IMG/VR virus record: IMGVR_UViG_3300036799_000108
Coordinates: 2,543 to 66,542 of that record
DNA length: 64,000 nt
Origin: a virus
Direction: 5' to 3' (one strand)
Shown: one piece after another, positions 11,946-31,178 of the stretch
Layout of the letters: each line of letters begins with the position of its first letter
Position numbering within the stretch: the stretch's first letter is position 1
The notes under the pieces: model-generated
What the model saw: the letters and a program-made list of their open reading frames with translations, nothing else
Told to the model about the DNA's origin: nothing
Database searches by the model: none
Position numbers and translations under genes: made by a program

Positions 11946-12445
11946 TTCACCAGTTGCAGCACGCGTTTCACGCCATTCGGCAGCGGATTGACGATGTCGA
12001 GTTGCCCCGGCGAGAGATAGGCGGCGCGAGGTCTCGCCTGATCATCGCGCCGCTCGCTGAACGGGCTGTGCATGTTGGCGACGATCTCCTGCACGCAGGC
12101 ACGGACATGCGCGATCTCTTCCTCGGACGGCGGCACGCGCGGTTCGAGCGGCGGCGCCTCCCTAGGCTTCTCCAGCAACGGCGGCAGTGGGCGATGCTCG
12201 CGCCACCAGTCGGACAGCCACGCCGCGAGTTCGCCGTAGGTCGGGAAGCCTTTCACCGCCTTGGCGGCGACGTGCTCCAGGCTGGCGGTCGTGAAGGCGC
12301 CATCGGGGAAGCGATCGAACAGCAGCGGCACGTAGGCCGCGAGCTTCATCTCGGCTTCCTGGCGCGAGATGCTAACCGCTGACAGCACGCCGAGGGATTG
12401 GCACCACTGTCGCACCACCGGGATGTGTGTCTTTTGGTTCGGCAT
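11942..12445 (-). CDS. Putative replisome partner / helicase-loader-like protein
   Basis: Directly follows the YdaU initiator; KGFPTYGEL motif; function inferred from synteny. Confidence 0.5.
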   Translation of the reverse strand: MPNQKTHIPVVRQWCQSLGVLSAVSISRQEAEMKLAAYVPLLFDRFPDGAFTTASLEHVAAKAVKGFPTYGELAAWLSDWWREHRPLPPLLEKPREAPPLEPRVPPSEEEIAHVRACVQEIVANMHSPFSERRDDQARPRAAYLSPGQLDIVNPLPNGVKRVLQLVK

Positions 12446-13013
12446 CGATCGTCTCCTGCAGGTCGGCGAAAGTGCTACCGACGAACCCGTTCCGAGGTTC
12501 CTTCACCCTTCCACCATCATAACGAGCCGCCCGCGTTTCCCCCCGATCGGGGGGAATTAAAGGGGGGGCTTTCTGTGTTCTTGGTTGTGGATCTGGAGTC
12601 GCGCGCACGCGGCCGTGATCGCGCGAGTCATCGCTATTTTCTGGATGGCATATGCCATCTTCTCCGTTGGCATGTGCCATTTTCCATCGGCGGCTAGCGC
12701 CTTGTTTTCCAGCAGCTTGCTTGACTTCGCTCACATTCCTGGCGCGCTCCCGTTCAGTGTCGATCCTCCGATGCACCCAGCATCCGTCCTGGCAACTGAA
12801 AAGCGCCATCGCGGGAGCCGCTTGGCGACGCCATTGCGGCACGCTGATCTTGGCGATCCTGGCCAGCGCTGCCTCGTCGGTCGGCAGCTCGCCGCGCTTG
12901 AAGTAATGCATGATCAGCAAGAGGTAGATGCCGTGCTGAAACGTGGTCAGATGCATCGTGTCGGCGAGGTAATCGCCCACGTTGAATCGCATCCAATGGT
13001 CGGTCGAGGCCAT
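12372..13013 (-). CDS. YdaU/DUF1376 family replication initiator
   Basis: WMRFNVGDYLADTMHLTTFQHGIYLLLIMHYF..GELP.DE..LARIA; ATG at 13013. Confidence 0.9.
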   Translation of the reverse strand: MASTDHWMRFNVGDYLADTMHLTTFQHGIYLLLIMHYFKRGELPTDEAALARIAKISVPQWRRQAAPAMALFSCQDGCWVHRRIDTERERARNVSEVKQAAGKQGASRRWKMAHANGEDGICHPENSDDSRDHGRVRATPDPQPRTQKAPPLIPPDRGETRAARYDGGRVKEPRNGFVGSTFADLQETIDAEPKDTHPGGATVVPIPRRAVSG

Positions 13014-13014
13014 C

Positions 13015-13239
13015 TCAGAGCAGACCAAGCACACGGTAATGACGCTCAACCTTGGCCAGCGACATGCCGAACATTTTTGCGACCTCCTCTGGGCTCGGCA
13101 GCAGCCCGGTCGCGGCTAGCTGGCGATCGGCAAATGCCTTGATGCTGGCGGTGCGCGGCGTAGCGTCTGGATGATCACCGCGGTAGCGCTGATAGAGCGC
13201 GGTCTTCTGCCCGCCGCCATGTCGGTATGCGTGGGCCAT
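13015..13239 (-). CDS. Small HTH-like hypothetical protein
   Basis: PSPEEVAKMFGMSLAKVERHYRVL. Confidence 0.6.
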   Translation of the reverse strand: MAHAYRHGGGQKTALYQRYRGDHPDATPRTASIKAFADRQLAATGLLPSPEEVAKMFGMSLAKVERHYRVLGLL

Positions 13240-13274
13240 CACGGCCAGAACTCATCGGGGTGCGGCCAGCCAGA

Positions 13275-13317
13275 AGGGCAGGAGCTAGCCCGGCGAACCG
13301 GACTAGCCCCCTGCCCT
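13275..13317 (-). terminator. Long hairpin with UUCG loop directly after the 26-aa ORF
   Basis: About 19-bp stem; the two imperfect pairs are G-U only in minus-strand RNA. Confidence 0.65.
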
Positions 13318-13396
13318 ACCGCCGACGTATGCTGATCTTGACCTTCACGGCCACGACCACCACTATCCACGGCAGGAACTTGCGATGTTCTAGCAT
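13316..13396 (-). CDS. 26-aa cationic hydrophobic peptide MLEHRKFLPWIVVVVAVKVKISIRRR, putative type I toxin
   Basis: Translated by hand; RBS GAGGGAG 6 nt upstream; flanked by hairpins. Confidence 0.6.
   Translation of the reverse strand: MLEHRKFLPWIVVVVAVKVKISIRRR
13338..13366 (+). promoter_or_regulatory. Sigma70-like antisense promoter inside the peptide ORF
   Basis: TTGACC(13338-43)-N17-CACTAT(13361-66). Confidence 0.5.
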
Positions 13397-13450
13397 CACA
13401 TGCTCCCTCTGAACGCCCGTCAGGCCCATCCTGGCGGGCGTTGCCGTTTT
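13373..13450 (+). ncRNA. Predicted ~75-80 nt antisense RNA covering the peptide start codon and RBS
   Basis: Promoter above; ends in a 13-bp hairpin (13412-13442; G-U pair only in + RNA) followed by GCCGTTTT. Confidence 0.45.
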
Positions 13451-13477
13451 GAGGCCGACGAGGTGCGCGACGCAAGG

Positions 13478-13759
13478 TCATGCTGCCTGCTCCGGTAGCT
13501 CGAGCGGACAATCAACCGTCCGGTAGGTGACGCCAGTCGAGCGCACGCGAATGATGTAGTGGCCGCGCCTGTGACCGACATCGATCATTCCCTGCTTCGC
13601 GAGCCATGCGATCGAATGCGAGAGCCGGTATGGATCGATCGTTTCGGACAGCATCACGCTGATCTCGTGAAGAGGTGGCAGCTCCTCGTCCTTGCGCACG
13701 ACCAGCCACTCGTAGAACAGCATTGCAGCGCGGTGGGTCCATGAGCGGGAAGAGGTCAT
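13478..13759 (-). CDS. Winged-helix-like hypothetical protein
   Basis: LPPLHEISVML...SHSIAWLAKQGMIDV; ATGA overlaps. Confidence 0.6.
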   Translation of the reverse strand: MTSSRSWTHRAAMLFYEWLVVRKDEELPPLHEISVMLSETIDPYRLSHSIAWLAKQGMIDVGHRRGHYIIRVRSTGVTYRTVDCPLELPEQAA

Positions 13760-14019
13760 GATACTCGGTCCGGAGATGCTGAGACGATTTGGTCCCACCG
13801 TCTGTCGTAGAGATGCATGCCCCAGACACTTCGATCGTCGCAAAGCGCAAACAACCGCACCCCGCCATCATTGGCGCAGGCGGAGATCTGAACGATCTGC
13901 ACTCCTGATGGCGGACCAACGGGCAACGAAGGGCGTAGCTGGGGTGTGCCGTCCGAGATGCTCAAGCCACTTCTTAGAGCCTTGGCAGCGCGCGTGGTCC
14001 ATGAGCGGGCGGAGGTCAT
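13756..14019 (-). CDS. Hypothetical protein
   Basis: LFALCDDRSVW; coupled at both ends. Confidence 0.55.
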   Translation of the reverse strand: MTSARSWTTRAAKALRSGLSISDGTPQLRPSLPVGPPSGVQIVQISACANDGGVRLFALCDDRSVWGMHLYDRRWDQIVSASPDRVS

Positions 14020-14642
14020 TGGGTAACCTCGCTGAGAAAGGTCGAGCGATCATTTGGCGATGCGCGCTTCCAGGCGCGACGGAGCACGGTAAGCTGGGAA
14101 GTCTCCGTGATGATGCCGGCAGCGAGCGCAGCGGCACGGGCTGATCGGAACTCACCAGCGGCGAGGCGTTTGGCGAACTCCGGAGCGTCACGCTTGAGGC
14201 GGCCGATCAGATAGGCGGAACCACGGCCGATAAAACCAGTAGTGTTACTATCGGTTTTATGTCCACGCCCTGGGCCTGCATGAATCGCCGGTCCTGCGGC
14301 GGGCACCGCGTCGACCACGTCCCGCAGGAGCTTGCGATCGTCCTCCTCGACCATGATCGCGCGTACAACCTCGACACGCATCCCGAGACCGAACGGCTCC
14401 GGGTATTGGACGAAGTCCTCCCAGGTCGAGAATGTCGATCCATCACGATCGGTCAGTTTGGTGAAGTGCTGATCCTTCGCGAACGAGAGCAACCGATACT
14501 TGAGGCTGGACACCGCGCTCTGTGATTGGCGCTTCAGTTCTCGGATCCGTTCTAGGGCGGCCTTGCACCACGCGGCCGATCCGGAGGGCGCGTTCGGATC
14601 GCCGACGTCGAATAGCTGCGAAGTTCGCGTGATCGCGTTCAT
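14016..14642 (-). CDS. Conserved phage hypothetical protein
   Basis: C-terminal GSAYLIGRLKRD.PE.A.RLAAGEFRSARAAALAAGI motif; ATGA-coupled to the helicase. Confidence 0.7.
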   Translation of the reverse strand: MNAITRTSQLFDVGDPNAPSGSAAWCKAALERIRELKRQSQSAVSSLKYRLLSFAKDQHFTKLTDRDGSTFSTWEDFVQYPEPFGLGMRVEVVRAIMVEEDDRKLLRDVVDAVPAAGPAIHAGPGRGHKTDSNTTGFIGRGSAYLIGRLKRDAPEFAKRLAAGEFRSARAAALAAGIITETSQLTVLRRAWKRASPNDRSTFLSEVTQ

Positions 14643-16357
14643 AACGGATACCAGCGCGGCAGATCGACATACCAAAGCTGGCGCAGCTCGTTCTCCGTCA
14701 TGACTTCGCGGTTCTTGCCGCAACGGCGGATTATCTCGCTGTTGATGGCATGCGCGCGTTCGCCGGCCTGCTCGCCCTCGCGCTCAGCGACGGCGTGCAC
14801 ATGGGCATCACACCATTTCTTCAATTGGTCGGTCCGCTGTGTCGGCGTCAGTGGTGACGCGGCGTCGCCATCGTCATCATCTTCATCCTCACGGCCAGTC
14901 GCTTCCAGCACGTCATCGATGAACCGCTTGAGCGCCAGTGGTGACGCCGACACGCCGTTACGCTCCGCCGCCGCACAAATGTCCCGGTATTCCTTGTCGC
15001 TGGTCGCAAACCCGGTTTCGAACTCGCTGGCGCGAATTGCACCGATCGAGCCGTTCATAGGCACGATGCCACCCGATCGGTCACCGCCGTTGCCGCCGCC
15101 CGTCGCGCTGCGCTCACGCATGAACGGCTGTTGCTGCGCACGGATTGTGGTGATGATCGAGTTCATAAGCGGATCATCAGGGCACCAGATATGCGCGGCC
15201 TGCGTTGACCATGCCCCCGCTTTGTCATCGAATCGCGTAGCCCGTGCGAGGGCTTGGTAAATCCAAGGCATCGACCGGATATGCGTGAGCAACGCAACGT
15301 GAGTGATTGAGGGGCAATCCATCCCCTCATAGGCCATCGCCACCGTGACCAGTGCATCGAGGTGCGGTCGTTCATTGCCCTTTAGTCGCTCGATATTCCG
15401 CAGAGCGTCGGCGGTGTCATCACTGGTGGCGATGCCGCAATGCGGAAGGCCGAGGCGTTGGATATGCTTTTGAAACCGCTGTGCCAGCTTCTTCCGTGGA
15501 GCGATGCAGAGGAATTTAGCGTGTGGATGCCTCTGTCTATACGAATTGAAGTGAGCGACCGCCTCGCTCAATAGCTCAAGCGCGTATGTTTCCTGTAGCA
15601 CTGTGAAGATTGCCGACCGCGCGTCGTCATCATCCGCTGCACTAATCCTGTCGACAAGTCGTTCGTTGTTGCCGTTGTCGCGCCACTGTGCGCTGCCATC
15701 GACATGATGGAACACAAGCGGGATGATCGCTTCCTCGTTCAAGGCATTGCGCCAGTCATAGCGGAATACCTGTTGCGCGGCGGTGTTTTCTAGGTTCGCC
15801 TGTGACTTGCCATGCGCGAGTGGGCCATAATCGAGGAACGCAACCTGCTGCTCATCGTGCCGCTGGAACGTTCCCGACGCCAGCAAGGTGACCGGAGCCA
15901 GTTTGACCAGTTCTGCAAGTTTCCGGTGACGGGTGGAACCATCAACAATGTGATGCCCCTCATCGATGATCAGGCCGGTCCGCTTCCGGCGGAAATAGTC
16001 AATATGCAGATCGATGCGGTCATCTGCCGCGTCGAAGGTCGTGGCATACCCAAACGTGCCACCGTCAGCATTCAGAGGATTGCCTGGCGCGGCCTTAATT
16101 TCAAGCTGGTGACCGATCAGATGACGCAGCCAGGGCGCGACGAACACATGCTCGGCCTGTGAGCACAGTGCGACGCGAGGGCAGAGCCACACCAGGCCAT
16201 CGATGATGCCGCGTGTATGCAGCCGGTGCGCCATGATGGGTCCAAGGCTAGACTTCCCTCCGCCTGGGCAAACGTCGCCGAGTAGCAACCGAATGTCAGT
16301 GCCGCATTCCTGTGCACGCACGAATTGATCGAACTCATACTGAAACCGCCGGAACAT
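14639..16357 (-). CDS. SF2 DEAD/DEAH-box (ResIII-like) helicase
   Basis: PGGGKS (Walker A), IIDEGHH (II), SGT (III), MAYEGMDCP (V), QALARATR (VI). Confidence 0.92.
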   Translation of the reverse strand: MFRRFQYEFDQFVRAQECGTDIRLLLGDVCPGGGKSSLGPIMAHRLHTRGIIDGLVWLCPRVALCSQAEHVFVAPWLRHLIGHQLEIKAAPGNPLNADGGTFGYATTFDAADDRIDLHIDYFRRKRTGLIIDEGHHIVDGSTRHRKLAELVKLAPVTLLASGTFQRHDEQQVAFLDYGPLAHGKSQANLENTAAQQVFRYDWRNALNEEAIIPLVFHHVDGSAQWRDNGNNERLVDRISAADDDDARSAIFTVLQETYALELLSEAVAHFNSYRQRHPHAKFLCIAPRKKLAQRFQKHIQRLGLPHCGIATSDDTADALRNIERLKGNERPHLDALVTVAMAYEGMDCPSITHVALLTHIRSMPWIYQALARATRFDDKAGAWSTQAAHIWCPDDPLMNSIITTIRAQQQPFMRERSATGGGNGGDRSGGIVPMNGSIGAIRASEFETGFATSDKEYRDICAAAERNGVSASPLALKRFIDDVLEATGREDEDDDDGDAASPLTPTQRTDQLKKWCDAHVHAVAEREGEQAGERAHAINSEIIRRCGKNREVMTENELRQLWYVDLPRWYPL

Positions 16358-17847: not shown

Positions 17848-18078
17848 TCAGGCCGCTTTTCTCCTCCGTGCCGGCGGATCCCAGATGTCGGGCCGCAGCA
17901 CATGCAGAGGCAGGCCGAACACCTGATTCAGTGCCTTCGCCTGGGCTGGTGGGATCTGATTTCGCTCCCGCCGCCAGAAGTTGACGCACTGATAGGTGAC
18001 CCCCAACACCGCCGCTGCCTGCCTGCTGGTCAGGCGGCATCGGATGAACGCGAGGTCGATGTCGGACCTGGGCCGCAC
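17848..18078 (-). CDS. Cro/YdaS-like HTH regulator
   Basis: SRQAAAVLGVTYQCVNFW...IPP...LPLHVLRPDIW; divergent from the repressor; start uncertain (GTG 18078). Confidence 0.82.
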   Translation of the reverse strand: MRPRSDIDLAFIRCRLTSRQAAAVLGVTYQCVNFWRRERNQIPPAQAKALNQVFGLPLHVLRPDIWDPPARRRKAA

Positions 18079-18228
18079 CCAGCTATAAAATAACTTCCCG
18101 TGATCTTTGGCAAGGCCTCGGTTTAGACTTGATCCGACTCTATACACGGTGTTATCGAATAGTTAAGACTCCGCAACCGAATTGAGGAAGGATTTCTGGC
18201 TATCCAAGAGCATCTTTCCAACCTGCGG
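18079..18228. promoter_or_regulatory. Divergent immunity-switch region (cI/cro intergenic)
   Basis: AT-richer spacer between divergent HTH genes; operators not resolved by eye. Confidence 0.6.
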
Positions 18229-18804
18229 TTGTTCGCTGCTCGGCTGAAGCAGTTGCGGCTCAACTATGGCACGCAAATCGAGAAACCGGGTCTATCGGCG
18301 CGTCAGTTCGCGAACATCCTCGGTATCGCGGCGCAGCGCTATCGCCGCTACGAGCGGGCCGAGATCGAGCCGCCGCTGGAAGTGCTGGCGCTGCTGCGGC
18401 GTTTGACCGGGGTCTCCCTGGATCGGCTGGTGGCTGGCATGCGGCCGGGCGATGCGGATATGGTCGCGCAGCACGGGGAGCGTGATGAGACGTCTCTGGT
18501 GACGGCTGATCGGCTGCGCATGTCCCGCGAGGCGGCGAACCTTTCGATCAAGGATGTCGCCGAGCTAATGAAGCTCGAGATCGACGACTGGCTCCGCTGG
18601 GAAGCCGATCTGGATACGCCGCCAATTGATAAGCTTGTAGAATACGCCGCGAGATTTTCGGTCACGATCCAGTTTCTGACGGACGGCGAGCTGACAGGGT
18701 TACGACCCGAGATCCGGCAGATGTTGGTCGCGAGGTTTCCCGAGTTGGAGGGACCGTTGCCTCACAACACAGAGGCCGCTGACCAGGAAAAACACACGGC
18801 ATAG
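18229..18804 (+). CDS. CI-like repressor with two tandem XRE HTH domains, no S24 peptidase
   Basis: ARLKQLR..LSARQFANILGI..YRRYER and DRLRMSRE..LSIKDVAELM..WLRWE; start TTG 18229 or CTG 18196 (after GAGGAAGG). Confidence 0.85.
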   Translation: MFAARLKQLRLNYGTQIEKPGLSARQFANILGIAAQRYRRYERAEIEPPLEVLALLRRLTGVSLDRLVAGMRPGDADMVAQHGERDETSLVTADRLRMSREAANLSIKDVAELMKLEIDDWLRWEADLDTPPIDKLVEYAARFSVTIQFLTDGELTGLRPEIRQMLVARFPELEGPLPHNTEAADQEKHTA

Positions 18805-22842: not shown

Positions 22843-22854
22843 GGAGGAACAAAC

Positions 22855-23139: not shown

Positions 23140-23336
23140 AGCTCGGGTTCCGGCGCGACTTCGACCCGACCCTGCTCTCCTGGGGCGGCCCTGATGAAGC
23201 GCCGACAGAGACATGCTCGATCTGCGATGCGGTCCTCGAGGAGGATGATGTGCCGCTGATCATGTGGCGTGAGGACGGCTGGTGCGTGCGCCTCTGCGAC
23301 GCCTGTGTCGCGCGTTGGATCGAGGTGAAGCGGTGA
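23136..23336 (+). CDS. Small Zn-finger protein
   Basis: CSICD...LCDAC. Confidence 0.7.
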   Translation: MKLGFRRDFDPTLLSWGGPDEAPTETCSICDAVLEEDDVPLIMWREDGWCVRLCDACVARWIEVKR

Positions 23337-23347
23337 AGCGGTGAAGC
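23324..23347 (+). repeat. (GGTGAAGC)x3 tandem repeat at a gene junction
   Basis: Three exact 8-mers spanning a stop and a GTG start. Confidence 0.9.
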
Positions 23348-23544
23348 CATTCACCTACGGGCAGCGGGTGAACGTGGTGGGCGAGATGCCCTCGTTTTCC
23401 TGCATTGTGCTGTGGGAGCAAGGTACATGCGAGGAGTGCGGCGTCCCGATGTATCGATGCCTCATGGAGAAGTGGAACCTCAGAGGCGACTTCTGCTCGT
23501 CTGTGATGCGCCTGTCGAACGACCAACCGGAGGCATTGCAATGA
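23341..23544 (+). CDS. Small Cys-containing hypothetical protein
   Basis: CEECG; ATGA overlap. Confidence 0.6.
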   Translation: MKPFTYGQRVNVVGEMPSFSCIVLWEQGTCEECGVPMYRCLMEKWNLRGDFCSSVMRLSNDQPEALQ

Positions 23545-23633
23545 GCGTCTGGTATTGTCCGGCCTGCCGAATCGCCTACGCGCCACAGCCCCATTGTCCG
23601 AGGTGCGGTGAGGTTGGGGTCCGTCAGCCATGA
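23541..23633 (+). CDS. 30-aa Zn-ribbon microprotein, copy A (MSVWYCPACRIAYAPQPHCPRCGEVGVRQP)
   Basis: Translated by hand; GGAGG RBS; ATGA overlaps; paralogue at 25673. Confidence 0.75.
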   Translation: MSVWYCPACRIAYAPQPHCPRCGEVGVRQP

Positions 23634-23851
23634 CCGACAACCGCGCCAAGATCGAGTTCGTCAGCATCGAGCAGGCCGAGGAGGCCGACGTGATGGTGTG
23701 CATGCCGTGGACGAGCCCGCTGATCCTGCCCGACAACCACCGGGCCAAGTGCGGCGTGTGCGGCCACATCGTCCAGCACCGTCCGGATGTGCCCAAGCGG
23801 CCGATGAAGGTGTGCCTGGACTGCGCGCCATCTGTGATCAGGCCGCAATGA
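23630..23851 (+). CDS. Small Zn-finger protein
   Basis: CGVCG...CLDC. Confidence 0.7.
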   Translation: MTDNRAKIEFVSIEQAEEADVMVCMPWTSPLILPDNHRAKCGVCGHIVQHRPDVPKRPMKVCLDCAPSVIRPQ

Positions 23852-24060
23852 CGGACGACCGGGCCGGGATTGAGATGACGCAGGCTATCCTCCGGGCCGT
23901 CGCGCCGATCGTGGACGGCCAGCCGAGTGAACTGGTGATGGAGGCGTTTGCGGCGGCGCTGGCGGCGGCGCTGGCAGGCAGCGGTTCGGACAAAAAGGGG
24001 GCTCGATTGGTGCTGCACCGCTATGCCGAGCGCATCCTCGATTTCGCGGAGATGATCTGA
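23848..24060 (+). CDS. Hypothetical protein
   Basis: ATGA overlap; MTDDRAG start. Confidence 0.6.
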   Translation: MTDDRAGIEMTQAILRAVAPIVDGQPSELVMEAFAAALAAALAGSGSDKKGARLVLHRYAERILDFAEMI

Positions 24061-24075
24061 CAAGGGAGAGAGCCC

Positions 24076-24486
24076 ATGACGATGAACGACCGACCGATTG
24101 AAAATCCGAACCTCCAGGCCGGCCTCGATGAGATCAAGGAGATCATGCTGCGCCGAGGGCTGGCTGGCTGCGCAATGCTGGTTGCGCCCGAGGAAGCGGC
24201 GTTCACCTACGGCATGCACGCGCCCTGGTCGGCGCTGCGGCCGGATCCGACCCTGCCACTCGGCTTCCGGTTCCGGGCCGTATCCGCCGAGACCGGCAAG
24301 GAGGAAACCAAGCGGCGTGTCGAAGGCGCCATGCACACGATCTGCCAAATATGCGACTTCGGCTACCAGACGGCGGCATGGATGGACGACCTGAAGGACA
24401 TGCTGCGCAAGGCCGGGATCGACTTCGATCACACGCCGTATGGCGGGAGGCCGTTGCCTCACCTGTTGAGTGATCGCCCCAGTTAG
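24076..24486 (+). CDS. Hypothetical protein
   Basis: AAGGGAG RBS. Confidence 0.75.
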   Translation: MTMNDRPIENPNLQAGLDEIKEIMLRRGLAGCAMLVAPEEAAFTYGMHAPWSALRPDPTLPLGFRFRAVSAETGKEETKRRVEGAMHTICQICDFGYQTAAWMDDLKDMLRKAGIDFDHTPYGGRPLPHLLSDRPS

Positions 24487-24570
24487 ATGTGTTGCGTCGG
24501 CGCCACAGCAAAACCGGTATCGTCACAAACGCATAACACCGAGTTGCATGCTCACCGGGACCGATGCTGG

Positions 24571-24586
24571 GATTACCTCGGTAATC
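24571..24586. promoter_or_regulatory. Palindromic operator candidate GATTACC-TC-GGTAATC
   Basis: Perfect 7-bp inverted repeat 23 nt upstream of the RHH gene start. Confidence 0.5.
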
Positions 24587-24609
24587 TAACCCCGAGGAGA
24601 GCCGAAAAT

Positions 24610-25029
24610 ATGCCTAACGATGACAGCCCAGACTTCAAGCCGTGGAACGTCAAAGACTTGCCGGTCGCCATCCGCAGCCAGATCACCGACTTGGCCGCGC
24701 GCCAGGGCGTCACGGTGGCCGAGTGGCTCACCGAGTACTTCACGCTGCATGGCCTCGACGGCCAGGATTTACCAGCTATTCCACGGAGAGATCGCCCGGC
24801 TAATCGCGACACCGATACCCTCGACCGGGTCATAGACCGCGCCTGCAGGCTCGCCCAGCACACGGCCTCAATGCCGAAGGCGGTGGCTGATCTGGCCTAC
24901 GGGCTGGTGAAGGCAGAGCTGCGGGATCTGCGAGCCGAGGCGCCGGTTTTACCGCGGTTACCGTCGGGAAAGTTCGCCCGATTAGAACCATCGGAGACAC
25001 GAACTGAAACCGCCGAGATCGGAGCGTAA
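24610..25029 (+). CDS. Ribbon-helix-helix DNA-binding protein (plasmid-type)
   Basis: KPWNVKDLPVAIRSQITDLAARQGVTVAEWL; GAGGAG RBS. Confidence 0.7.
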   Translation: MPNDDSPDFKPWNVKDLPVAIRSQITDLAARQGVTVAEWLTEYFTLHGLDGQDLPAIPRRDRPANRDTDTLDRVIDRACRLAQHTASMPKAVADLAYGLVKAELRDLRAEAPVLPRLPSGKFARLEPSETRTETAEIGA

Positions 25030-25038
25030 TAGGATATT

Positions 25039-25326
25039 ATGGCAGCAGAAACAGGGCCCAAGCTGATCCACTCCGAGCCTACGCCAGGGCAGATCATCAC
25101 CGAGCTGCACTGCTGGATTGCGACCTACCAGGACGGCTCCGAGGGGATCATCGCTGGCGGGGTTCCGGACATGGGCATGACGCCGCTGCTCACGTCGCGC
25201 CTGCATGTCGCCAAAGGCATGGAGAGTATGGCGCGACAGGTGATGCGTCTGTCGCACCAGACCAAGCACCCGGTCGTCAGCGTGCGGCTGGTGACCTTCA
25301 CCTCGACCGAGGGAACCCGGTCATGA
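25039..25326 (+). CDS. Hypothetical protein
   Basis: TAGGA RBS; coupled. Confidence 0.7.
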   Translation: MAAETGPKLIHSEPTPGQIITELHCWIATYQDGSEGIIAGGVPDMGMTPLLTSRLHVAKGMESMARQVMRLSHQTKHPVVSVRLVTFTSTEGTRS

Positions 25327-25676
25327 CCATCGGTCCTGACTTCGACGCCATCTTTTGCGTGGTCGGCGGCAGGGATAACCTGAGCGACAGCACGCGCGCC
25401 GACGTCGTCAGGCACCTCAACGGGACAGTGCGCACCAGCACGACCGGCGGGACGGTTCACCTCGCCGTCGATGGGTTCGACGATGACCCACGCGAGCTGT
25501 GGGAAATCCCAGAGGTGCGAGAATACGTCAGGCGCCTGGTCCTCGACCTGGATACGGAGGTGGCACTCCGCCTCGATGAGCTGTCGAGGATCCTCGGGGC
25601 GGTCTGCTGCGGGCTGCTGCGGCCGGTGGGGCGTGACCCGGTGACCGGCAACACCCGATTCGAGAGGACGACATGA
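25323..25676 (+). CDS. Hypothetical protein
   Basis: DDDPRELWEIPEVR; coupled. Confidence 0.7.
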   Translation: MTIGPDFDAIFCVVGGRDNLSDSTRADVVRHLNGTVRTSTTGGTVHLAVDGFDDDPRELWEIPEVREYVRRLVLDLDTEVALRLDELSRILGAVCCGLLRPVGRDPVTGNTRFERTT

Positions 25677-25765
25677 GCGTCTGGTATTGTTCGGCCTGCA
25701 AGATCGCCTACGCCTCGGTGCCCTACTGCCCGCGTTGCGGCGCGGTCGGAGTTCGCCAGCCATGA
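25673..25765 (+). CDS. 30-aa Zn-ribbon microprotein, copy B (MSVWYCSACKIAYASVPYCPRCGAVGVRQP)
   Basis: Translated by hand; GAGAGGA RBS; paralogue of 23541. Confidence 0.75.
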   Translation: MSVWYCSACKIAYASVPYCPRCGAVGVRQP

Positions 25766-25941
25766 ACGACCGCGAGATGGCGCTGCAGGAGGCTGGCGAC
25801 GCCGCTGCCGACTGTGTGCAGCGCCTGGAGCGCATCAAAGGGTGGTTGGACGACCTGACACCCGAGGAGGCCCAGCTCTGGTTCCTGGCGCGACAGGCGT
25901 GCGACCGGCTCTATTTGGCCGTCAATAAGCGCCAGCCATGA
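25762..25941 (+). CDS. 59-aa hypothetical protein ending KRQP
   Basis: ATGA overlaps at both ends. Confidence 0.65.
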   Translation: MNDREMALQEAGDAAADCVQRLERIKGWLDDLTPEEAQLWFLARQACDRLYLAVNKRQP

Positions 25942-26234
25942 GCGAGACGGTGCAATTCTGCCCGAGGTGCCTAACCAAGACCTGGTTCGTGGGTGGTGTG
26001 TGCGAATGGTCGGACGGTCATCGCTGGCGCCAGGGCGACCGCGTGATGATCGCCATCGGACCGGACAGCACGCCTGGGGTGGTGATCCTAGCGTCGGGCA
26101 ACGGCAAGTCACTGATGCTGGAGTTTGAGGCAATCCTGCATGGCCATGTCGGGACGATGCCGGTGCTGCTCGAGGACGACGGCTGCTTTCGCTCTGTCGT
26201 CACAGGAGAGGTCGTAACTCTTCTTGGAGAGTAG
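25938..26234 (+). CDS. Hypothetical protein with N-terminal CxxC
   Basis: FCPRC; ATGA overlap. Confidence 0.65.
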   Translation: MSETVQFCPRCLTKTWFVGGVCEWSDGHRWRQGDRVMIAIGPDSTPGVVILASGNGKSLMLEFEAILHGHVGTMPVLLEDDGCFRSVVTGEVVTLLGE

Positions 26235-26236
26235 CC

Positions 26237-26488
26237 TTACGGCCTCTCGATCACCTCAACGTCGTCCAGCTTCAGGACGCACGCGAAACCGATGTCGTGC
26301 AGCATCCATCCCGTCGCGAATGGCGCTCCTTGGTGCCAGTGCGCAAGCACGAGGTCGCCAGCGCGCTTCACCGGCTTCCTGTTCGCGCCAGTGACATCCG
26401 TCCGAAGGCGCAGGACGGCATAGCCGTTGTGAGATCGCCAGGGGCGGAAGAATGGTTCGGTCGTGCGTGCCATGCGCCTCCTACTCAT
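26237..26488 (-). CDS. Hypothetical protein
   Basis: TAGGAGG RBS; convergent with the + operon. Confidence 0.65.
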   Translation of the reverse strand: MSRRRMARTTEPFFRPWRSHNGYAVLRLRTDVTGANRKPVKRAGDLVLAHWHQGAPFATGWMLHDIGFACVLKLDDVEVIERP

Positions 26489-26491
26489 GGG

Positions 26492-26884
26492 CTAATCCGC
26501 CGGCGGCACGATCGACAAACAGGGGGGAGAGCCGGGGGGGTCGCGTGGGGCTGCACCATAGGCGTCATAGAGTTGCTGCGACGGAAGGAGGTATCGGCCG
26601 CGGCGGATCGACGTCGCCTCGCTGCCCCAACGGCGGTGATGTTCCTCGGAAATCTCGTCTTCGGCAAAGGCTTTGGAGATCGCACCGTCGATCGAGAATA
26701 TGTTGCACCCGAGCACCTCCGCCAGCGCTCGGCGCGTGGGCAACGACCTCTGTTGCTCGTAGAGCGCGCAGATGATCCCCAGCAGGGGCGCTGCCAGGGG
26801 ATCCAGCACGTTGCGATGGTCGGCCAGCCACTCCTCGATCGCTCTGATGCGGTGGGCGGGGATTTCGGGCACCGAGTTGTCCAT
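26492..26884 (-). CDS. Winged-HTH-like protein
   Basis: LPTRRALAEVLGCNIFSIDGAISKA. Confidence 0.6.
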   Translation of the reverse strand: MDNSVPEIPAHRIRAIEEWLADHRNVLDPLAAPLLGIICALYEQQRSLPTRRALAEVLGCNIFSIDGAISKAFAEDEISEEHHRRWGSEATSIRRGRYLLPSQQLYDAYGAAPRDPPGSPPCLSIVPPAD

Positions 26885-26947
26885 CACGGGTTTTGTCCCT
26901 CCAATTTGCGATGCCGGGGCAAACTGCCAGTCGCCGCAACTGAGCAC

Positions 26948-26980
26948 AAAAAAAGCCCGGCCTCACACGGGAGGACCGGG
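26948..26980 (-). terminator. Intrinsic terminator (minus strand)
   Basis: CCCGGTCCTC-loop-GAGGCCGGGC followed by T7. Confidence 0.75.
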
Positions 26981-27022
26981 ACCGGGAGAGTATGTTCAGT
27001 TATCGCGCGCAACGCTACGGGC

Positions 27023-27303
27023 TTGCGGCGCCTCGCGCAACGGTAGCAGAATAAGGCGGGACGCAGCCGGGCTCTGACCCCCGACTACGTCCCTAACCAT
27101 AGGACGAGCTCGAGGACTGCCCCATGGCTGCGATTAAATTGCACGGTTTGCTGTGCGTCGCGAAGCGGCCTTGTGCCGCTGGGGCGGGCTGGGCGCGTGA
27201 TCGCGCCGTTAAAAATCAGTCTCGCCAATCAGTTAGGGTTCCGGCAGGCTGGTTACAGGCCCGACTCGGTGTCGGGTCGCCGCTGGAGCAACACATGACC
27301 TAA
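27023..27303 (+). promoter_or_regulatory. Structured leader upstream of rep: promoter, hairpin and 59-aa leader ORF
   Basis: TTGCGG-N18-CAGAAT; hairpin 27058-27093; ORF 27124-27303 with GAGGA RBS. Confidence 0.45.
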
Positions 27304-27455
27304 AACGCCGAAAGCCGCCACAAGGGCGGCCCTCCGCAGTCGATGATTAGGTACCTGGCAGTCCTGATCATCGTACAAGCAGCGCCCGAAATCAAGCCCG
27401 TCTTGGCTACGGAGGTGCGCGTCCAAATGGATGGCCTCGGCATGGGGGGAACACC

Positions 27456-28052
27456 ATGACGAAGCGCAGACCAAGTTCTGATCGTATCCGCCCCTGGCAC
27501 CGCGGCTCGGTGTTCGGTGACGGCCGACGCCGGCCTATGAACCGCGATGAAAAGGGCATCTGGCGGCGCCTCGTGCATCGCCACGTCAGGGCCGGCGGGA
27601 TCGGCCCCAAGGGCGCCTGGGCGCTGGAGGTGCTACCGGACTACCTCGCGCGGGACGGCCGCTGTGACCCGTCACACGCCCGTCTGGCGGCTGATGCCGG
27701 AGTGGGGGAGAGCACGGTCGCGCGGGCCCTGGCGGACGCCAAGGCCGTTGGGCTGCTGGATTGGGATCGCCGGCTCGTGCGCACCGGCTGGCGGGCCGAG
27801 CAGACCAGCAACGCCTATGTGCTGATCGTGCCGGGCAGCAGGGCAGGGGAGGGAGCACCGCCGCCTCAGCCTGCACCGCCTATCAAGAGCTTAAAGCTTG
27901 AATCTGGTTACACTGTCGCCGTGAATGTCGCAGCACTGCCGGTGATGGATCCCGCCGCCCAACAGGCCAGGATCGCGGCTAAATGGGCAGAGGAACGGCG
28001 GCTGCGGCTCGCCCGACTCGGTGCGAATCGAGGGGTGAATCGCATGGGCTAG
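27456..28052 (+). CDS. Plasmid-type HTH replication initiator (HTH_36-like)
   Basis: DGRCDPSHARLAADAGVGESTVARAL..GLLDWDRRLVRTGWRAEQTSNAYVL, the pattern of Acetobacteraceae-type plasmid HTH Rep proteins. Confidence 0.7.
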   Translation: MTKRRPSSDRIRPWHRGSVFGDGRRRPMNRDEKGIWRRLVHRHVRAGGIGPKGAWALEVLPDYLARDGRCDPSHARLAADAGVGESTVARALADAKAVGLLDWDRRLVRTGWRAEQTSNAYVLIVPGSRAGEGAPPPQPAPPIKSLKLESGYTVAVNVAALPVMDPAAQQARIAAKWAEERRLRLARLGANRGVNRMG

Positions 28053-28081
28053 TTTTGTTCTGACGGCCCGACGGCCCACGG

Positions 28082-29077
28082 TCAGAAGATCGTGGTGATC
28101 ATCGGGCCGATGCTGGGGATCGTGGCCACGCCGGCGGCGGCCCAGTGCTCAATGGCGGCCTGGGTGACCCAGACGGGCGGCGGGGCCACGCCAGCCCAGT
28201 GCTCCAGCGCGGCCTGCGTCACCGCGATCTGAACGAAGCCGCTGGTCGTGGTGGCCCAATGCTCGAAGGCGACCTGGGTGACCCAGAGCGGCGAGGCATC
28301 CGTGCCGCCCCACTCTTCCAGCGCGATCTGGGTGACCTGTGCCGCCGGGCTGCCGGCACCCCACTCCTCGATGGCGATCTGGGTGACCTGCGCATCGGGG
28401 AACAGAACTTGCCACTGCTCGACCGCCGCCTGGGTGAGCCACATCTGTGGCACCGGGAGGTACCACTCCTCGACCGCGGCCTGGGTGACGAGCGCGTTGG
28501 TATTGATCGTGGCGCCTGCGGTGAAGCCGCTGGTGAAGCCGCTCGGGACTGTGCCGCTGAACGCGCTGTCACCGAAGTTTGCGACGATATTGCCTGCGCC
28601 GTTGAAATACGCCCAGGGGTACAGCGGTAAGCCCAAACCGCCTGTGATACCGATGCCCCCAACGCCGGTCCCCGGTGAGGCTGCGGCGCTATTGTTCCAG
28701 TTCCCCGATGGCGCTACACGAAACCAGATCAGACGATTGGAAAGATCAACCGCAACGCCATACACATCTCCGGACGATCTGACGCCAAGTTGTATCCCGG
28801 TAGAGACGTTATCGACAGAAATGGTTCCGTTTATATTCACGACTGCGGAAGGGGCTACCGTGGTCGATATTCCAAGCGTGGTGTTGATACCCACCAAACC
28901 TATATAGGTGGCTGAATTGGTAGTGTTCATGGTAAATTCTAAATAGAACTTCCCGCTGGCTTGCCGGTCTGCGGCGCGAAGTCCTTGAGCGACAGTAATC
29001 GTTGTCGCCGTCAGATTGCCATTCGACAACGTGACGCTGGCGGTTTTGTCGGTGGTGCTCCATGTGGTGCCAGCCAT
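28082..29077 (-). CDS. Tail-associated SPRY/ConA-like protein with 7 C-terminal (V/L)TQxAxExW repeats
   Basis: TLSNGNLTAT, SGKFYLEF, GDVYGVAVDL, NFG..F.GTVPSGF. Confidence 0.8.
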   Translation of the reverse strand: MAGTTWSTTDKTASVTLSNGNLTATTITVAQGLRAADRQASGKFYLEFTMNTTNSATYIGLVGINTTLGISTTVAPSAVVNINGTISVDNVSTGIQLGVRSSGDVYGVAVDLSNRLIWFRVAPSGNWNNSAAASPGTGVGGIGITGGLGLPLYPWAYFNGAGNIVANFGDSAFSGTVPSGFTSGFTAGATINTNALVTQAAVEEWYLPVPQMWLTQAAVEQWQVLFPDAQVTQIAIEEWGAGSPAAQVTQIALEEWGGTDASPLWVTQVAFEHWATTTSGFVQIAVTQAALEHWAGVAPPPVWVTQAAIEHWAAAGVATIPSIGPMITTIF

Positions 29078-29095
29078 CGCTTAGCTCACAACTCG

Positions 29096-29110
29096 TGCTA
29101 CATTATCGGC
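29096..29110 (+). promoter_or_regulatory. Extended -10 (TG-C-TACATT) 6 nt before the HNH ATG; leaderless promoter candidate
   Basis: Same geometry at 31201-31215. Confidence 0.55.
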
Positions 29111-29701
29111 ATGAGACATGCGAGCATCACAGCCGACTGTGTGGTCTGTGGAACCGCCTTTCATCCGTGGCGGCACGCGATCGGACGCGCGCGCTTCTGT
29201 AGCCGAGCCTGCTATAAGAACAGATTGGGCAGCAACACCGAGGAAAAGTTCTGGACAAACGTCGTGAAAGGCGATGACTGCTGGATCTACAAGCGTGTAG
29301 GCCGGCGTGGTTACGGAAAGATGCTGGCGGATGGTAGGCATAAGCGGGCTCACCGGATCGCCTGGGAACTGAACAAGGGGGAAATACCCGCAGGACTGTT
29401 CGTTTGCCACACTTGCGATAACCCGTCCTGCGTTCGACCTGACCATCTGTTCCTCGGTACAGCCGCCGACAACACTGCCGATATGCTGGCGAAGGGGAGG
29501 CGTGTCGCACCAAGCACCGCCAACAGACCGCGCGGTGAACGTCACCACAATAGCAAGATCACTGCCACCGAAGCTCGTCGCATCAAAGCGCTTTGGGCAA
29601 AAGGCGGCAGAAGACAGGCAGACATCGGTGCTATGTTCGGTGTCAGCCAGACTGCCGTGTATCATATCGTTCATGGGCACAGTTGGGCACATATCAGCTA
29701 A
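29111..29701 (+). CDS. HNH homing endonuclease 1 (antisense to the tail operon)
   Basis: CW..GYG..AHR.AW..VCHTCDNPSCVRPDHLFLGT..DN..DM; C-terminal HTH ending WAHI. Confidence 0.93.
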   Translation: MRHASITADCVVCGTAFHPWRHAIGRARFCSRACYKNRLGSNTEEKFWTNVVKGDDCWIYKRVGRRGYGKMLADGRHKRAHRIAWELNKGEIPAGLFVCHTCDNPSCVRPDHLFLGTAADNTADMLAKGRRVAPSTANRPRGERHHNSKITATEARRIKALWAKGGRRQADIGAMFGVSQTAVYHIVHGHSWAHIS

Positions 29702-31178
29702 TTACGACCGGGCCGATTTGGCAATTATCCGCATTGGCCGCCGTCCAGGCCGAGCCGGTGTTCGGATCGGTGAGATCCATGCGCCATGCCCACTGCCAGC
29801 CGCTGTTGGTCAGCGTGAGTGTCGGCGAGGCGACAGTCGTGGAGCCAGACTTGATCCGCATCGAAGCGGTGCGCGAACCAGCATCGGACTTCTGCATATA
29901 CCCGCGTGTAGTCATCGCGATGATGGCGCCAGGGGTAGGCGTTGGCGTGATGGTGCCGAAGGCGTAGAAGTCCGCGTCGTTCACCGTGCTGTCGTAGACA
30001 TAGGTTGCTGTGCCGTCCTGCTGGGCTTCACTGACCACATCGCAATTCGCGCTGATCGTAAAAGTTATCGAACAGAGTGCCGCGTTGCTGGTGGTCATAG
30101 CGGGCGAGGCCGCAGGGAAACTCGCATACGAGGTCGTGCTGGTACCTCCTGATGTCACGGTTCCGCCAAAGCTAAAAGTGCCGGACGACGTATCGCTGAC
30201 AAAACCGAACCAATACTGTGTTCCTTTAGCCACCGTGACTGGTGTTCCAAAGGTAAACGTATTGATCCCCGTTACGGGGTTTGTGATGGCGGTAGCCGAG
30301 CCCAGCACCGTCGTCGGTGCACTTCCTGAAGACGCGAAGATCGAGCACTTCATATTGCCCGTGTAGCCAGCGCCCAGGGTGACAGTTGCCGTGCCAATCG
30401 TGCCGTCCCAGGCGGCCACAAAGGACGAGTATCGCGGCTGCCCTGCTGTGATGCCGGCGTTCGATATGATCGTGTAGGGCGTTTGGATGGCCGTCGTCGG
30501 CGACCGCGAGAACTGCACACTCGCATCGCTCGCTGGCATCCGGGTGTAGCACCGAATGTCGCCTATCCACGCCACGCTCGATGCGTCGGAGCGCCAGAAC
30601 AGATCATCGACCTGTTGGTTAACACTCGCGTTCACTCCGAATGTCAGTCGGTTGGCGTAAGCATTTACAGAGTTCTGCGTATCCAGGCTGCCCAGCGCGT
30701 GGTCGTTGCTAGTGTTGCCGTTCTTGCGCACCACCCAACTGCCGGTCGTGTTGTTGATCACCACTTCGATCTCGAACGCATACCATGTGGCGCTTGCTGT
30801 CACCGCGCCGGTATAGGTGTCCAGCGTCGTTCCTGCTGGACCGCCGGAAGTCAGCAGGATCGCGCCGTCGCTACGGAACACTACAGAGCATTGCGCTGTA
30901 GCTCCGTCTCCCAAGGAAAAGTAGGTAACACTTGACGTTCCTGATAGAGCTGCGGTCTGATAAAACGCGCAGACGATGTGGTGAACAGCATCGTTTTGCC
31001 CACTGTTCTTGATGAGGTTCATGCCAAGGGTGGCACACTGCAAGGCACGACTGCCCGCAAATCGGCCGGCTACTAGGGTGTAGTTGACGGAGCTGCCTGT
31101 GATGGCGTCCCAATACCCGTTGATGGCATCGGCGGCCGCCGTATACAGATCGAACCCGTCACCAAAGGACCATGCCAT
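29694..31178 (-). CDS. Tail-associated lectin-like (ConA/LamG-like) protein, paralogue 3
   Basis: FGDGFDLY N-terminus; C-terminal TTRGYMQKSDAG..DPNTGSAWT shared with two paralogues. Confidence 0.8.
   Translation of the reverse strand: MAWSFGDGFDLYTAAADAINGYWDAITGSSVNYTLVAGRFAGSRALQCATLGMNLIKNSGQNDAVHHIVCAFYQTAALSGTSSVTYFSLGDGATAQCSVVFRSDGAILLTSGGPAGTTLDTYTGAVTASATWYAFEIEVVINNTTGSWVVRKNGNTSNDHALGSLDTQNSVNAYANRLTFGVNASVNQQVDDLFWRSDASSVAWIGDIRCYTRMPASDASVQFSRSPTTAIQTPYTIISNAGITAGQPRYSSFVAAWDGTIGTATVTLGAGYTGNMKCSIFASSGSAPTTVLGSATAITNPVTGINTFTFGTPVTVAKGTQYWFGFVSDTSSGTFSFGGTVTSGGTSTTSYASFPAASPAMTTSNAALCSITFTISANCDVVSEAQQDGTATYVYDSTVNDADFYAFGTITPTPTPGAIIAMTTRGYMQKSDAGSRTASMRIKSGSTTVASPTLTLTNSGWQWAWRMDLTDPNTGSAWTAANADNCQIGPVVIS

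What the first reader, a model, noticed from the sequence alone, without database searches (positions are those of the whole stretch)
27456..28052. Plasmid-type Rep where the integrase should be: possible phage-plasmid with two replicons
Seen: no tyrosine or serine recombinase anywhere in 64 kb, although repressor and Cro imply a temperate lifestyle. At the junction of the left early arm and the tail-fibre end (the lambdoid int/att position) sits an HTH Rep of plasmid type, in addition to the lytic YdaU initiator. No ParA or protelomerase is visible. Inference: extrachromosomal lysogeny, possibly stabilised by the type I TA-like unit rather than by partitioning.
Basis: partly seen in the sequence, partly recalled or inferred. 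Interest (0 to 1): 0.62.

Follow-up and report, generated by a model that had tools for sequence, protein, structure and literature searches.

The report
Plasmid replication module in soil phage
A soil phage with no integrase carries, where lambda-like phages keep theirs, a replication-initiator gene of a type used by small alphaproteobacterial plasmids, together with that family's own folded RNA control leader, so it may persist as a plasmid; this is not proven.

Summary
ORF 27456-28052 is a real, conserved gene for a 198-aa protein with one winged helix. It converges on the last tail-fibre gene. The whole 69.6-kb virus record has no tyrosine or serine recombinase, rve transposase, protelomerase or true ParA.

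The protein belongs to an HTH_36-type family. In Acetobacteraceae and sphingomonads this family sits beside parA-parG, often on small contigs or complete plasmids. It is the only gene annotated as a replication protein on the complete plasmid pA46BH3.

New here: a leader of about 165 nt (27300-27462) travels with the gene in phages and plasmids. It has four hairpins, and all 26 base pairs covary across 28 distinct sequences. Its sequence also suggests a roughly 60-nt antisense RNA, with a promoter-like site and a terminator on the minus strand. Rfam has no match.

"Plasmid-type Rep" is therefore well supported by homology and context. "Phage-plasmid" stays plausible (about 45%) but unproven. 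No partition system or convincing iterons were found, and no lysogen was seen. Integrase absence is common among related soil phages. Two tools that could have tested the lifestyle were unavailable.

The parts
27456..28052 (+). rep-like gene of 198 aa. It has a conserved N-terminal motif (PWHRGSVFG), one winged helix (helices about 30-97, wing hairpin 101-123 ending in QTSNAY), a low-complexity Pro-rich linker and a C-terminal helix (166-195).
27300..27462 (+). Conserved structured leader of the rep mRNA. Hairpins: H1 27314-27330; H2 27341-27373 (conserved loop CTGGCAGT); H3 27395-27408; H4 27441-27458, which pairs the ATG start codon and leaves the Shine-Dalgarno sequence in its loop.
   Evidence: nhmmer. 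Covariance models R1 and R2. Pair counts.
27302..27395 (-). Candidate antisense (counter-transcript) unit. The -35-like TTGATT lies at 27395-27390 and the -10-like GATGAT at 27372-27367, 17 nt apart. The predicted start is near 27360. The H1 hairpin plus a U-rich tract would act as an intrinsic terminator ending near 27302. Predicted RNA is about 60 nt. This is inferred from sequence, not observed.
27023..27093 (+). Candidate rep promoter: TTGCGG (27023-27028), 18 nt, CAGAAT (27047-27052). The hexamers are conserved and the spacer varies in the four closest phages. A 14-bp hairpin follows at 27058-27093.
   Evidence: Alignment; hairpin; sequence. Inference only.
27124..27303 (+). 59-aa ORF ending at the conserved ATGACCTAA that opens the leader. 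The frame is kept in L003, L008 and L002 but not in L005, L006 or L007. Coding status is uncertain.
26492..26947 (-). Divergent neighbour with a second winged-helix (MarR/HTH_36-like) DNA-binding domain. The likely true start is residue 22 (26884). It may regulate the module.
   Evidence: features 0.92; structure TM 0.53-0.58. No Pfam or PHROG hit.
26237..26488 (-). 83-aa gene of unknown function, downstream of the winged-helix neighbour on the minus strand.
28082..29077 (-). Last gene of the minus-strand tail-fibre block. It converges on rep.
   Evidence: phrog_10080, E=1.4e-21.
17848..18804 (.). Divergent Cro/YdaS-like gene (17848-18147, -) and double XRE-HTH gene (18229-18804, +). This is the putative genetic switch.
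12372..16357 (-). The phage's other replication module: SF2 helicase (14639-16357) and DUF1376/YdaU-like protein (12372-13049).

Best explanation
The ORF encodes an HTH_36-type winged-helix replication initiator (RepA) of the kind that drives small and medium alphaproteobacterial plasmids. It arrived in this lambda-like siphophage family as a complete control module.

The module has three parts:
- a promoter region;
- a leader of about 165 nt with four hairpins, the last of which hides the start codon;
- probably a roughly 60-nt antisense RNA made from the opposite strand, which would pair with the H2 loop and stem and hold Rep synthesis down.

The module sits where lambdoid phages carry int-xis-attP. 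The phage has no recombinase but does have a separate DUF1376/helicase replication module. The most likely role is therefore to replicate the prophage as a copy-number-controlled plasmid, while the other module serves lytic growth.

Shown: family membership, plasmid neighbourhood, purifying selection, leader structure by covariation, and absence of integrase, ParA and protelomerase. Inferred: initiator activity, the antisense RNA, the (unknown) origin, and lysogeny itself.
For: Homology and context:
- 109 homologues of about 165-195 aa, many carrying PF13730. phrog_391 'replication initiation O-like' matches at E=1e-8.
- The family occurs in 48 of 401 Acetobacteraceae genomes, often near contig starts or on contigs of 5-40 kb.
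- Neighbours are ParA plus ParG/RHH and/or a TraA relaxase in L060, L064, L068, L070, L075 and L077.
- A Rhodopila contig has ParA divergent from a 53%-identical homologue, followed by a D5_N primase-helicase.
- A Lichenicola complete plasmid has ParA divergent from a homologue.
- On the complete plasmid pA46BH3 a 237-aa 'replication protein A' sharing the QTSNAY wing motif is the only gene annotated as a replication protein, and it follows parA-RHH-RHH.
- HTH_36 Reps are a recognised REP class of small alphaproteobacterial plasmids (PMC3832669, PMC6209633).

Leader:
- Model R2 finds it immediately upstream of the Rep homologue in nearly all of its 31 matches, the one exception noticed being the weakest (L065), with 28 distinct sequences from phages and plasmids.
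- 89.9% of cells are paired against 61.5% in shuffles. All 26 pairs show changes on both sides. Slid controls reach at most 46%.
- H1 has 0 G.U pairs on the plus strand and 8 on the minus strand. A minus-strand U-rich tract is present in all 28.
- TTGnnn-17/18-nAnnnT is found at a fixed place in 23 of 28.

Phage side:
- All five closest phage records keep the gene and lack an integrase; two are CheckV 100% complete.
- dN/dS is 0.29-0.50.
- The record ends in one tandem repeat with no host flanks.
Against: - No ParA or other partition system in this phage or its five relatives.
- No iteron array next to the gene, only two 12-nt repeats 28 bp apart.
- The AlphaFold model has a single winged helix. 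Foldseek and VIA-align give only generic winged-helix matches, mostly transcription factors (TFE Z 8.8, Fur/PerR); DnaD/DnaB-NTD and RctB score only 6-7.
- The window protein's own Pfam HTH_36 score (17 bits) is below the 25-bit cut-off.
- No close relative of the phage was found as a plasmid or prophage: the best TerL identity is 45% in 401 Acetobacteraceae genomes and 44% in PLSDB.
- Integrase absence is common in this soil phage pool.
- Initiator activity of this exact subfamily has not, to my knowledge, been shown experimentally.
Confidence: 0.5

Rival explanations
1. The gene is a working replication initiator, but it serves lytic or early theta replication, or acts as a back-up origin. 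The phage family is virulent or only pseudolysogenic. The leader merely times Rep translation.
For: The phage pool sharing its tail protein is largely integrase-free: 0 of 11 near-complete records have an integrase, and four of the 49 records have direct terminal repeats. No partition genes were found. phrog_391 is a lambda-O-like phage initiator family. No lysogen or plasmid copy was found.
Against: A separate DUF1376 plus helicase module already sits in the Cro-side operon. The closest cellular relatives are plasmid genes next to parA-parG, not prophage replication modules. Tight antisense-type control is typical of stable low-copy replicons rather than run-away lytic origins (established knowledge of R1, ColE2 and pMV158).
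Confidence: 0.27
2. The protein is a winged-helix transcription regulator, not an initiator. It could be an immunity, late-gene or par/rep-operon regulator. On plasmids it would only accompany an unrecognised replication function.
For: The fold and PDB sequence matches are dominated by transcription factors. There is a single small DNA-binding domain and no adjacent iterons. A second winged-helix protein is encoded divergently.
Against: On the complete plasmid pA46BH3 and on the 5-kb contig L075, no other candidate Rep was found among annotated or Pfam-scanned genes. Many plasmid records start their numbering at this gene and name it RepA. The published REP-module classification treats HTH_36 proteins as initiators (PMC3832669).
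Confidence: 0.15
3. The module is a weapon or a passenger. A captured plasmid rep/antisense cassette could let the phage displace or exploit resident plasmids of the same incompatibility type, or it could be a neutral moron.
For: The module is portable. Its neighbours differ between phages: L002, L003, L005 and L008 show different flanks. The same leader occurs on plasmids of the likely host family.
Against: The gene is kept in every member of the phage family examined and is under purifying selection, so it is not a sporadic moron. No direct evidence of interference exists.
Confidence: 0.08

Closest known systems
HTH_36-type REP modules of small alphaproteobacterial plasmids (Paracoccus pAES7, pMARC3, pMOS2; P. 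yeei pYEE7/8; 'replication protein A' of sphingomonad and Agrobacterium plasmids such as pA46BH3 and pAgK84)
   Same: A protein of about 190-250 aa with one HTH_36 winged helix and the QTSNAY-type wing. The control region lies upstream of rep. In cells it sits next to parA-parG (PMC3832669, PMC6209633).
   Different: Here it lies in a phage with no par genes. Identity to PLSDB plasmid proteins is only 28-48%, and only over the winged helix. The published modules have iteron-like repeats upstream; none convincing was found here. I could not fetch the Paracoccus sequences for direct comparison.
Phage-plasmids (P1, N15, SSU5 from my own knowledge; Zymomonas mobilis pZM36, PMC5930841)
   Same: A complete tailed-phage gene set plus a plasmid-type replication gene and no integrase. 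pZM36 is an alphaproteobacterial plasmid in which 27 of 47 genes are phage-related. It carries a 576-aa protein with a weakly similar HTH_36 winged helix.
   Different: Those elements have partition systems (ParA plus Arc/RHH in pZM36); this phage has none. pZM36 is P2-like and unrelated in its structural genes. Similarity of the winged helix is marginal (29% identity, E about 1e-3).
Cluster A mycobacteriophages that carry parABS in place of the integration cassette (my own knowledge: Dedrick et al. 2016; not checked here)
   Same: The integrase slot of a temperate-type genome is occupied by a plasmid-maintenance module.
   Different: They swap in partition genes and rely on phage replication. 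Here a Rep module is swapped in and partition is missing.
Antisense-RNA control of plasmid rep genes (R1 CopA/CopT, ColE2 RNAI, pMV158 RNAII, repABC ctRNA; my own knowledge)
   Same: A target stem-loop in the rep leader, a small counter-transcript ending in an intrinsic terminator, and a start codon sequestered in a hairpin.
   Different: There is no sequence or Rfam relationship. The only weak Rfam hit, RF00043 (17.8 bits against a gathering score of 55, E=1.8), lies elsewhere at 27057-27131. The antisense RNA here is predicted, not observed.

Membership tests
HTH_36-type plasmid Rep (alphaproteobacterial REP module) | PF13730 winged-helix domain in a protein of about 200 aa | tested here: met
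   The window protein scores 17 bits (cut-off 25). Homologues at 41-55% identity carry PF13730, and plasmid members score 24-43 bits. The AlphaFold model shows one winged helix.
HTH_36-type plasmid Rep (alphaproteobacterial REP module) | Family members are the replication gene of plasmids (next to par genes, sole Rep candidate) | tested here: met
   This holds for cellular homologues. It rests on context and annotation, not experiment.
HTH_36-type plasmid Rep (alphaproteobacterial REP module) | Iteron-like direct repeats (oriV) upstream of rep | tested here: inconclusive
   Only two 12-nt repeats at 27006-27017 and 27034-27045, and no array. A 17-bp array of about 10 copies exists 29 kb away at record 380-550.
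HTH_36-type plasmid Rep (alphaproteobacterial REP module) | Supports autonomous replication of a minimal replicon | not testable with these tools
   Needs cloning into a suicide vector and a permissive host.
Phage-plasmid | Full phage structural and packaging gene set together with a plasmid-type replication gene | tested here: met
   TerL at 61833-63569, the tail genes, and Rep family membership as above.
Phage-plasmid | No integration machinery | tested here: met
   for the whole record; for five relatives.
Phage-plasmid | Partition system | tested here: not met
   No ParA. PF01656 gives only a P-loop hit in the AAA_24 gene here and in four of the five relatives (none in the fifth, a 51%-complete fragment). 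The ParB_N protein at 9233-9829 lies in a DNA-modification-like cluster.
Phage-plasmid | Seen as an extrachromosomal replicon in a lysogen | not testable with these tools
No close relative was found in PLSDB or in 401 genomes.
Antisense-RNA-controlled rep leader | Conserved structured leader supported by covariation | tested here: met
   The alignments are fitted to the model, which favours the structure; the slid and shuffled controls are still far lower.
Antisense-RNA-controlled rep leader | Antisense promoter and terminator giving a small counter-transcript | tested here: inconclusive
   Sequence signatures only. The tool's own promoter scan found nothing at its threshold.
Iteron-type Rep_3 initiators (RepE, pi, pPS10 RepA) | Two winged-helix domains (WH1-WH2), PF01051 | tested here: not met
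   The model shows a single winged helix. No PF01051 hit at E up to 0.1.
Lambda O-type phage initiator | Full-length O-like protein with the origin inside the gene | tested here: not met
   phrog_391 matches only 78 of 298 profile positions, the winged helix. No repeat array lies inside the ORF.

The most novel reading that the evidence does not exclude
An uncultured family of integrase-less, partition-less siphophages of about 60-70 kb from soil, whose host is probably in the Acetobacteraceae, lives as plasmid prophages. It uses a captured HTH_36 Rep whose synthesis is set by an uncatalogued RNA module: a four-hairpin leader plus a roughly 60-nt counter-transcript. The same RNA module governs a large class of alphaproteobacterial plasmids and would be a new RNA family.
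Probability: 0.35. Interest if true: 0.68.

Novelty: new member of a known kind. Interest (0 to 1): 0.55.

Why it matters
Phage-plasmids are increasingly seen as bridges between phage and plasmid gene pools, but known groups come mostly from enterobacteria and Firmicutes and usually carry partition systems. This case would add a soil alphaproteobacterial lineage that relies on a Rep-only module.

It also gives a directly clonable candidate minimal replicon (about 26.9-28.1 kb of the window) for poorly tractable Acetobacteraceae.

Independently of the phage's lifestyle, the covarying leader and its predicted antisense RNA define a control element. It is shared by many plasmids of this Rep family, including a complete Lichenicola plasmid, and is absent from Rfam.

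Tried and rejected
- Iterons or other repeat arrays around the gene: none beyond short two-copy matches.
- tRNA or attP-like features and Rfam families: none in the window. An E-value scan of 26900-27520 gave only chance-level hits.
- NCBIfam: no hit for the protein.
- PDB by sequence profile: only generic GntR/Lrp winged helices, best E=0.002.
- Foldseek pdb and VIA-align wide: generic winged helices. Replication proteins (DnaB/DnaD N-terminal domain, RctB, ORC) score only Z 5.8-7.3 among many transcription factors, which does not discriminate.
- RNAalifold on plain MAFFT alignments missed H2 because the arms were misaligned. This was solved with covariance models.
- Search for close (pro)phage relatives by TerL: best 45% identity in 401 Acetobacteraceae genomes, 44% in PLSDB, 41% in GenBank phages.
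- Looking for relatives that carry an integrase in the same slot (a module swap): not found. Only 3 of 49 records with a related tail protein have an integrase, and all three are fragments.
- Unknown 306-378-aa genes next to rep in L005, L006 and L008 as hidden recombinases: no Pfam hit.
- Paracoccus pAES7 record for direct comparison: not in the collection.
- pA46BH3 literature: none in the library.

Full report
**The object.** The window is bases 2543-66542 of a 69,648-bp IMG/VR virus record, classed linear with CheckV completeness 93%. ORF 27456-28052(+) encodes 198 aa with coding-like codon-position GC. Its stop lies 29 bp from the stop of the convergent gene 28082-29077(-). That gene is the last of a minus-strand structural block running from the terminase (61833-63569) to the tail fibres (phrog_10080, E=1.4e-21). 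To the left lies a plus-strand early operon: a double XRE-HTH gene at 18229, a PDDEXK exonuclease at 19649, an AAA_24 gene at 21383, then small genes up to 26234. It runs toward this junction as lambda's pL operon runs toward int. Two minus-strand genes (26237-26947) and a 508-bp spacer separate that operon from the ORF.

**No integration or partition genes.** Six-frame searches of the whole record found no Phage_integrase, Resolvase, rve or ResT/TelK domain. CbiA/ParA gave only a 15.5-bit P-loop match inside the AAA_24 gene. Both record ends consist of the same 24-nt tandem repeat in the same orientation, and no host-like genes flank the record. The assembly probably closed on itself and broke in the repeat. 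The five closest IMG/VR relatives also lack an integrase, and four show the same P-loop-only ParA hit (none in the fifth, a 51%-complete fragment); two of the five are CheckV 100% complete.

**What the protein is.** Pfam gives only a sub-threshold HTH_36 hit (17 bits). PHROGs gives 'replication initiation O-like' at E=1e-8 over residues 52-130. The large protein database holds 109 homologues of about 165-195 aa, many with PF13730, and a few are named from Acetobacteraceae or Rhodopila MAGs. The alignment shows a conserved N-terminal motif (PWHRGSVFG), so the annotated start is right. It also shows a core ending in the wing motif QTSNAY. AlphaFold2 (pLDDT 82) gives one winged helix with a long wing hairpin, a disordered Pro-rich linker and a C-terminal helix. 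Structure and PDB sequence searches return only generic winged helices. TFE, Fur/PerR and MarR rank above DnaB/DnaD N-terminal domains and RctB. The fold neither supports nor excludes an initiator.

**Context in cells.** This is the strongest evidence for 'plasmid type'.
- A profile of the family hits 48 of 401 sampled Acetobacteraceae genomes, often near contig starts or on contigs of 5-40 kb.
- Around the hits I found ParA plus a small ParG/RHH gene just upstream, and/or a Ti-type TraA relaxase downstream, in L060, L064, L068, L070, L075 and L077.
- On a Rhodopila contig a 53%-identical homologue is divergent from ParA and is followed by a D5_N primase-helicase.
- On a complete Lichenicola plasmid the homologue is divergent from parA.
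- On the complete 19.8-kb plasmid pA46BH3, parA-RHH-RHH is followed by a 237-aa 'replication protein A'. It is the only gene annotated as a replication protein and shares the wing motif (36% identity).
- A 5-kb contig (L075) carries a phosphatase, ParA, a small gene, the homologue, a BrnT-type TA pair and a Dam methylase, with no other Rep candidate.
- Many PLSDB records begin their numbering at this gene or call it repA, including pAgK84.
- The literature treats HTH_36 proteins as a REP-module class of small alphaproteobacterial plasmids (PMC3832669, PMC6209633).

I found no experiment on this exact subfamily.

**A conserved RNA leader travels with the gene.** The spacer just upstream of the ORF is conserved even between phages whose Rep proteins are about 50% identical. 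An nhmmer profile of it also hit the regions upstream of plasmid homologues. By eye and by single-sequence folding, a hairpin with the conserved loop CTGGCAGT/CTGACAGT/CTCGCAAT has a different stem sequence in each genome.

I built a covariance model from the window sequence with four hand-assigned hairpins (R1). I rebuilt it from the 10 best matches (R2) and searched all fetched loci. There were 31 matches (28 distinct), nearly all immediately upstream of a Rep homologue on the same strand. The one exception noticed was the weakest match (L065:2515-2611, E=0.019), which lies about 1.4 kb from the homologue found in that contig. The matches include the Rhodopila contig (L011:3303-3480) and the complete Lichenicola plasmid (L016:5645-5823).

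| Measure on the 28-sequence alignment | Observed | Control |
|---|---|---|
| Cells forming a standard pair | 89.9% | 61.5% in shuffles |
| Pairs with changes on both sides | 26 of 26 | 18.4 in shuffles |
| Cells paired when partners are slid by 1-3 columns | - | at most 46% |

No shuffle out of 500 reached the observed value on any measure. The 13-sequence alignment gave the same picture. The alignments are fitted to the model, which inflates pairing somewhat, but the margin is large. H4 pairs 27441-27445 with 27454-27458 and so includes the ATG, leaving the Shine-Dalgarno sequence in the loop. Rfam has no such family.

**Signs of an antisense RNA (inference).**
- H1 is all G-C on the plus strand. 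Its non-Watson-Crick cells are 8 C.A and 0 G.U, so they pair only on the minus strand.
- The 14 nt before H1 on the plus strand are A-rich in all 28 sequences. On the minus strand this reads as a G+C hairpin followed by a U-rich tract, an intrinsic-terminator shape.
- Upstream on the minus strand, TTGATT-17 nt-GATGAT (or close variants with A2 and T6) stands at a fixed distance from the H2 loop in 23 of 28 sequences.

Together these predict a counter-transcript of about 60 nt, running from about 27360 to 27302. It would be complementary to the H2 loop, the 5' arm of H2 and H1. This resembles copy-number control in R1, ColE2 and pMV158 (my own knowledge). The tool's own promoter scan found nothing at its threshold, and no transcript data could be obtained.

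**Is the phage a phage-plasmid?**

In favour:
- The module is a core feature of the phage family. It is present in all relatives found and has dN/dS of 0.29-0.50.
- It occupies the int slot.
- A second replication module (DUF1376 plus SF2 helicase) sits in the Cro-side operon.
- Tight antisense-type control fits stable maintenance.
- There is an alphaproteobacterial precedent, pZM36 of Zymomonas. It is mostly phage genes, is kept as a plasmid, and carries ParA-Arc and a large protein with a weakly similar winged helix.

Against:
- There is no partition system and no adjacent iterons.
- Lysogeny is inferred only from an XRE/Cro-like pair.
- No close relative was found as a plasmid or prophage.
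- Among 49 soil phage records sharing a tail protein, only three fragments have an integrase, and none of the 11 near-complete records does. Only three records carry this Rep family. 'No integrase' is therefore the norm in this pool and may simply mean virulence.

My estimates are about 0.8 that the gene is a plasmid-family Rep with a structured, probably antisense-controlled leader, and about 0.45 that the phage actually persists as a plasmid.

**Comparison with the known.** It works like an HTH_36 plasmid REP module and is a member of that family by homology and context. It is not a Rep_3 (WH1-WH2) initiator or a full lambda O. As a phage-plasmid candidate it differs from P1, N15, SSU5 and pZM36 in lacking partition genes. 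It differs from Cluster A mycobacteriophages, which swap in parABS rather than rep. That is a parallel lead, not independent proof.

Noticed in passing
G000:C1:1-155 and 69424-69648 (record ends, outside the window): Both ends of the virus record consist of the same 24-nt tandem repeat (unit CAGCCCTGCCCTGCCAGCCCTGAC and variants) in the same orientation. The assembly probably closed on itself and broke in this array. The array could also be a protein-binding (centromere- or origin-like) site.
   Followed up: partly
G000:C1:380-550 (about 2 kb left of the window start): An iteron-like array of about 10 tandem 17-bp units (TCGACACC..GCGC type, starts at 380, 397, 414, 448, 465, 499, 516, 533) lies in a non-coding stretch. 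It is a candidate origin or binding array for one of the two replication proteins.
   Followed up: no
G000:C1:68883-68971 (outside the window, right): An (AGGC)n microsatellite of about 23 copies lies next to a 186-aa XRE-like gene (68174-68734, -).
   Followed up: no
window 27023-27303: A promoter-like TTGCGG-18 nt-CAGAAT has conserved hexamers and a variable spacer in four phages. A 14-bp hairpin (27058-27093) and a 59-aa ORF that ends at the start of the leader follow it. This may be the rep transcript's 5' end and a leader peptide, or it may be non-coding.
   Followed up: partly
L003:9825-9985: In one relative a small ORF of about 50 aa is inserted between the conserved leader (whose H4 hairpin then holds this ORF's ATG) and the rep gene. 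Its stop overlaps the rep start (ATGA), which suggests translational coupling.
   Followed up: no
window 26492-26947 (-): The divergent 151-aa neighbour (probable start at residue 22) is itself a MarR/HTH_36-like winged-helix protein by language-model and structure look-up. The module therefore has two winged-helix proteins facing each other.
   Followed up: partly
L080 (CP023680.1, Zymomonas mobilis pZM36, 20705-31085): pZM36 is filed in the 'phages' collection. It looks like a P2-type phage-plasmid: Ogr/Delta activator, portal, terminase, ParA plus Arc-RHH, and a 576-aa protein with an HTH_36 winged helix at residues about 258-322.
   Followed up: partly
49 IMG/VR records behind L087-L166: Soil phage records sharing the tail protein 36261-37427 almost never carry a tyrosine integrase. 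Only 3 of 49 do, all fragments, and none of the 11 records that are at least 90% complete does.
   Followed up: partly
window 21383-22600 (+) and orthologues in G002-G005: The AAA_24 protein of about 400 aa is the only P-loop gene that lights up with the ParA/CbiA profile (15-18 bits, Walker A only) in this phage and four relatives. Its C-terminal 230 aa have no family assignment.
   Followed up: no
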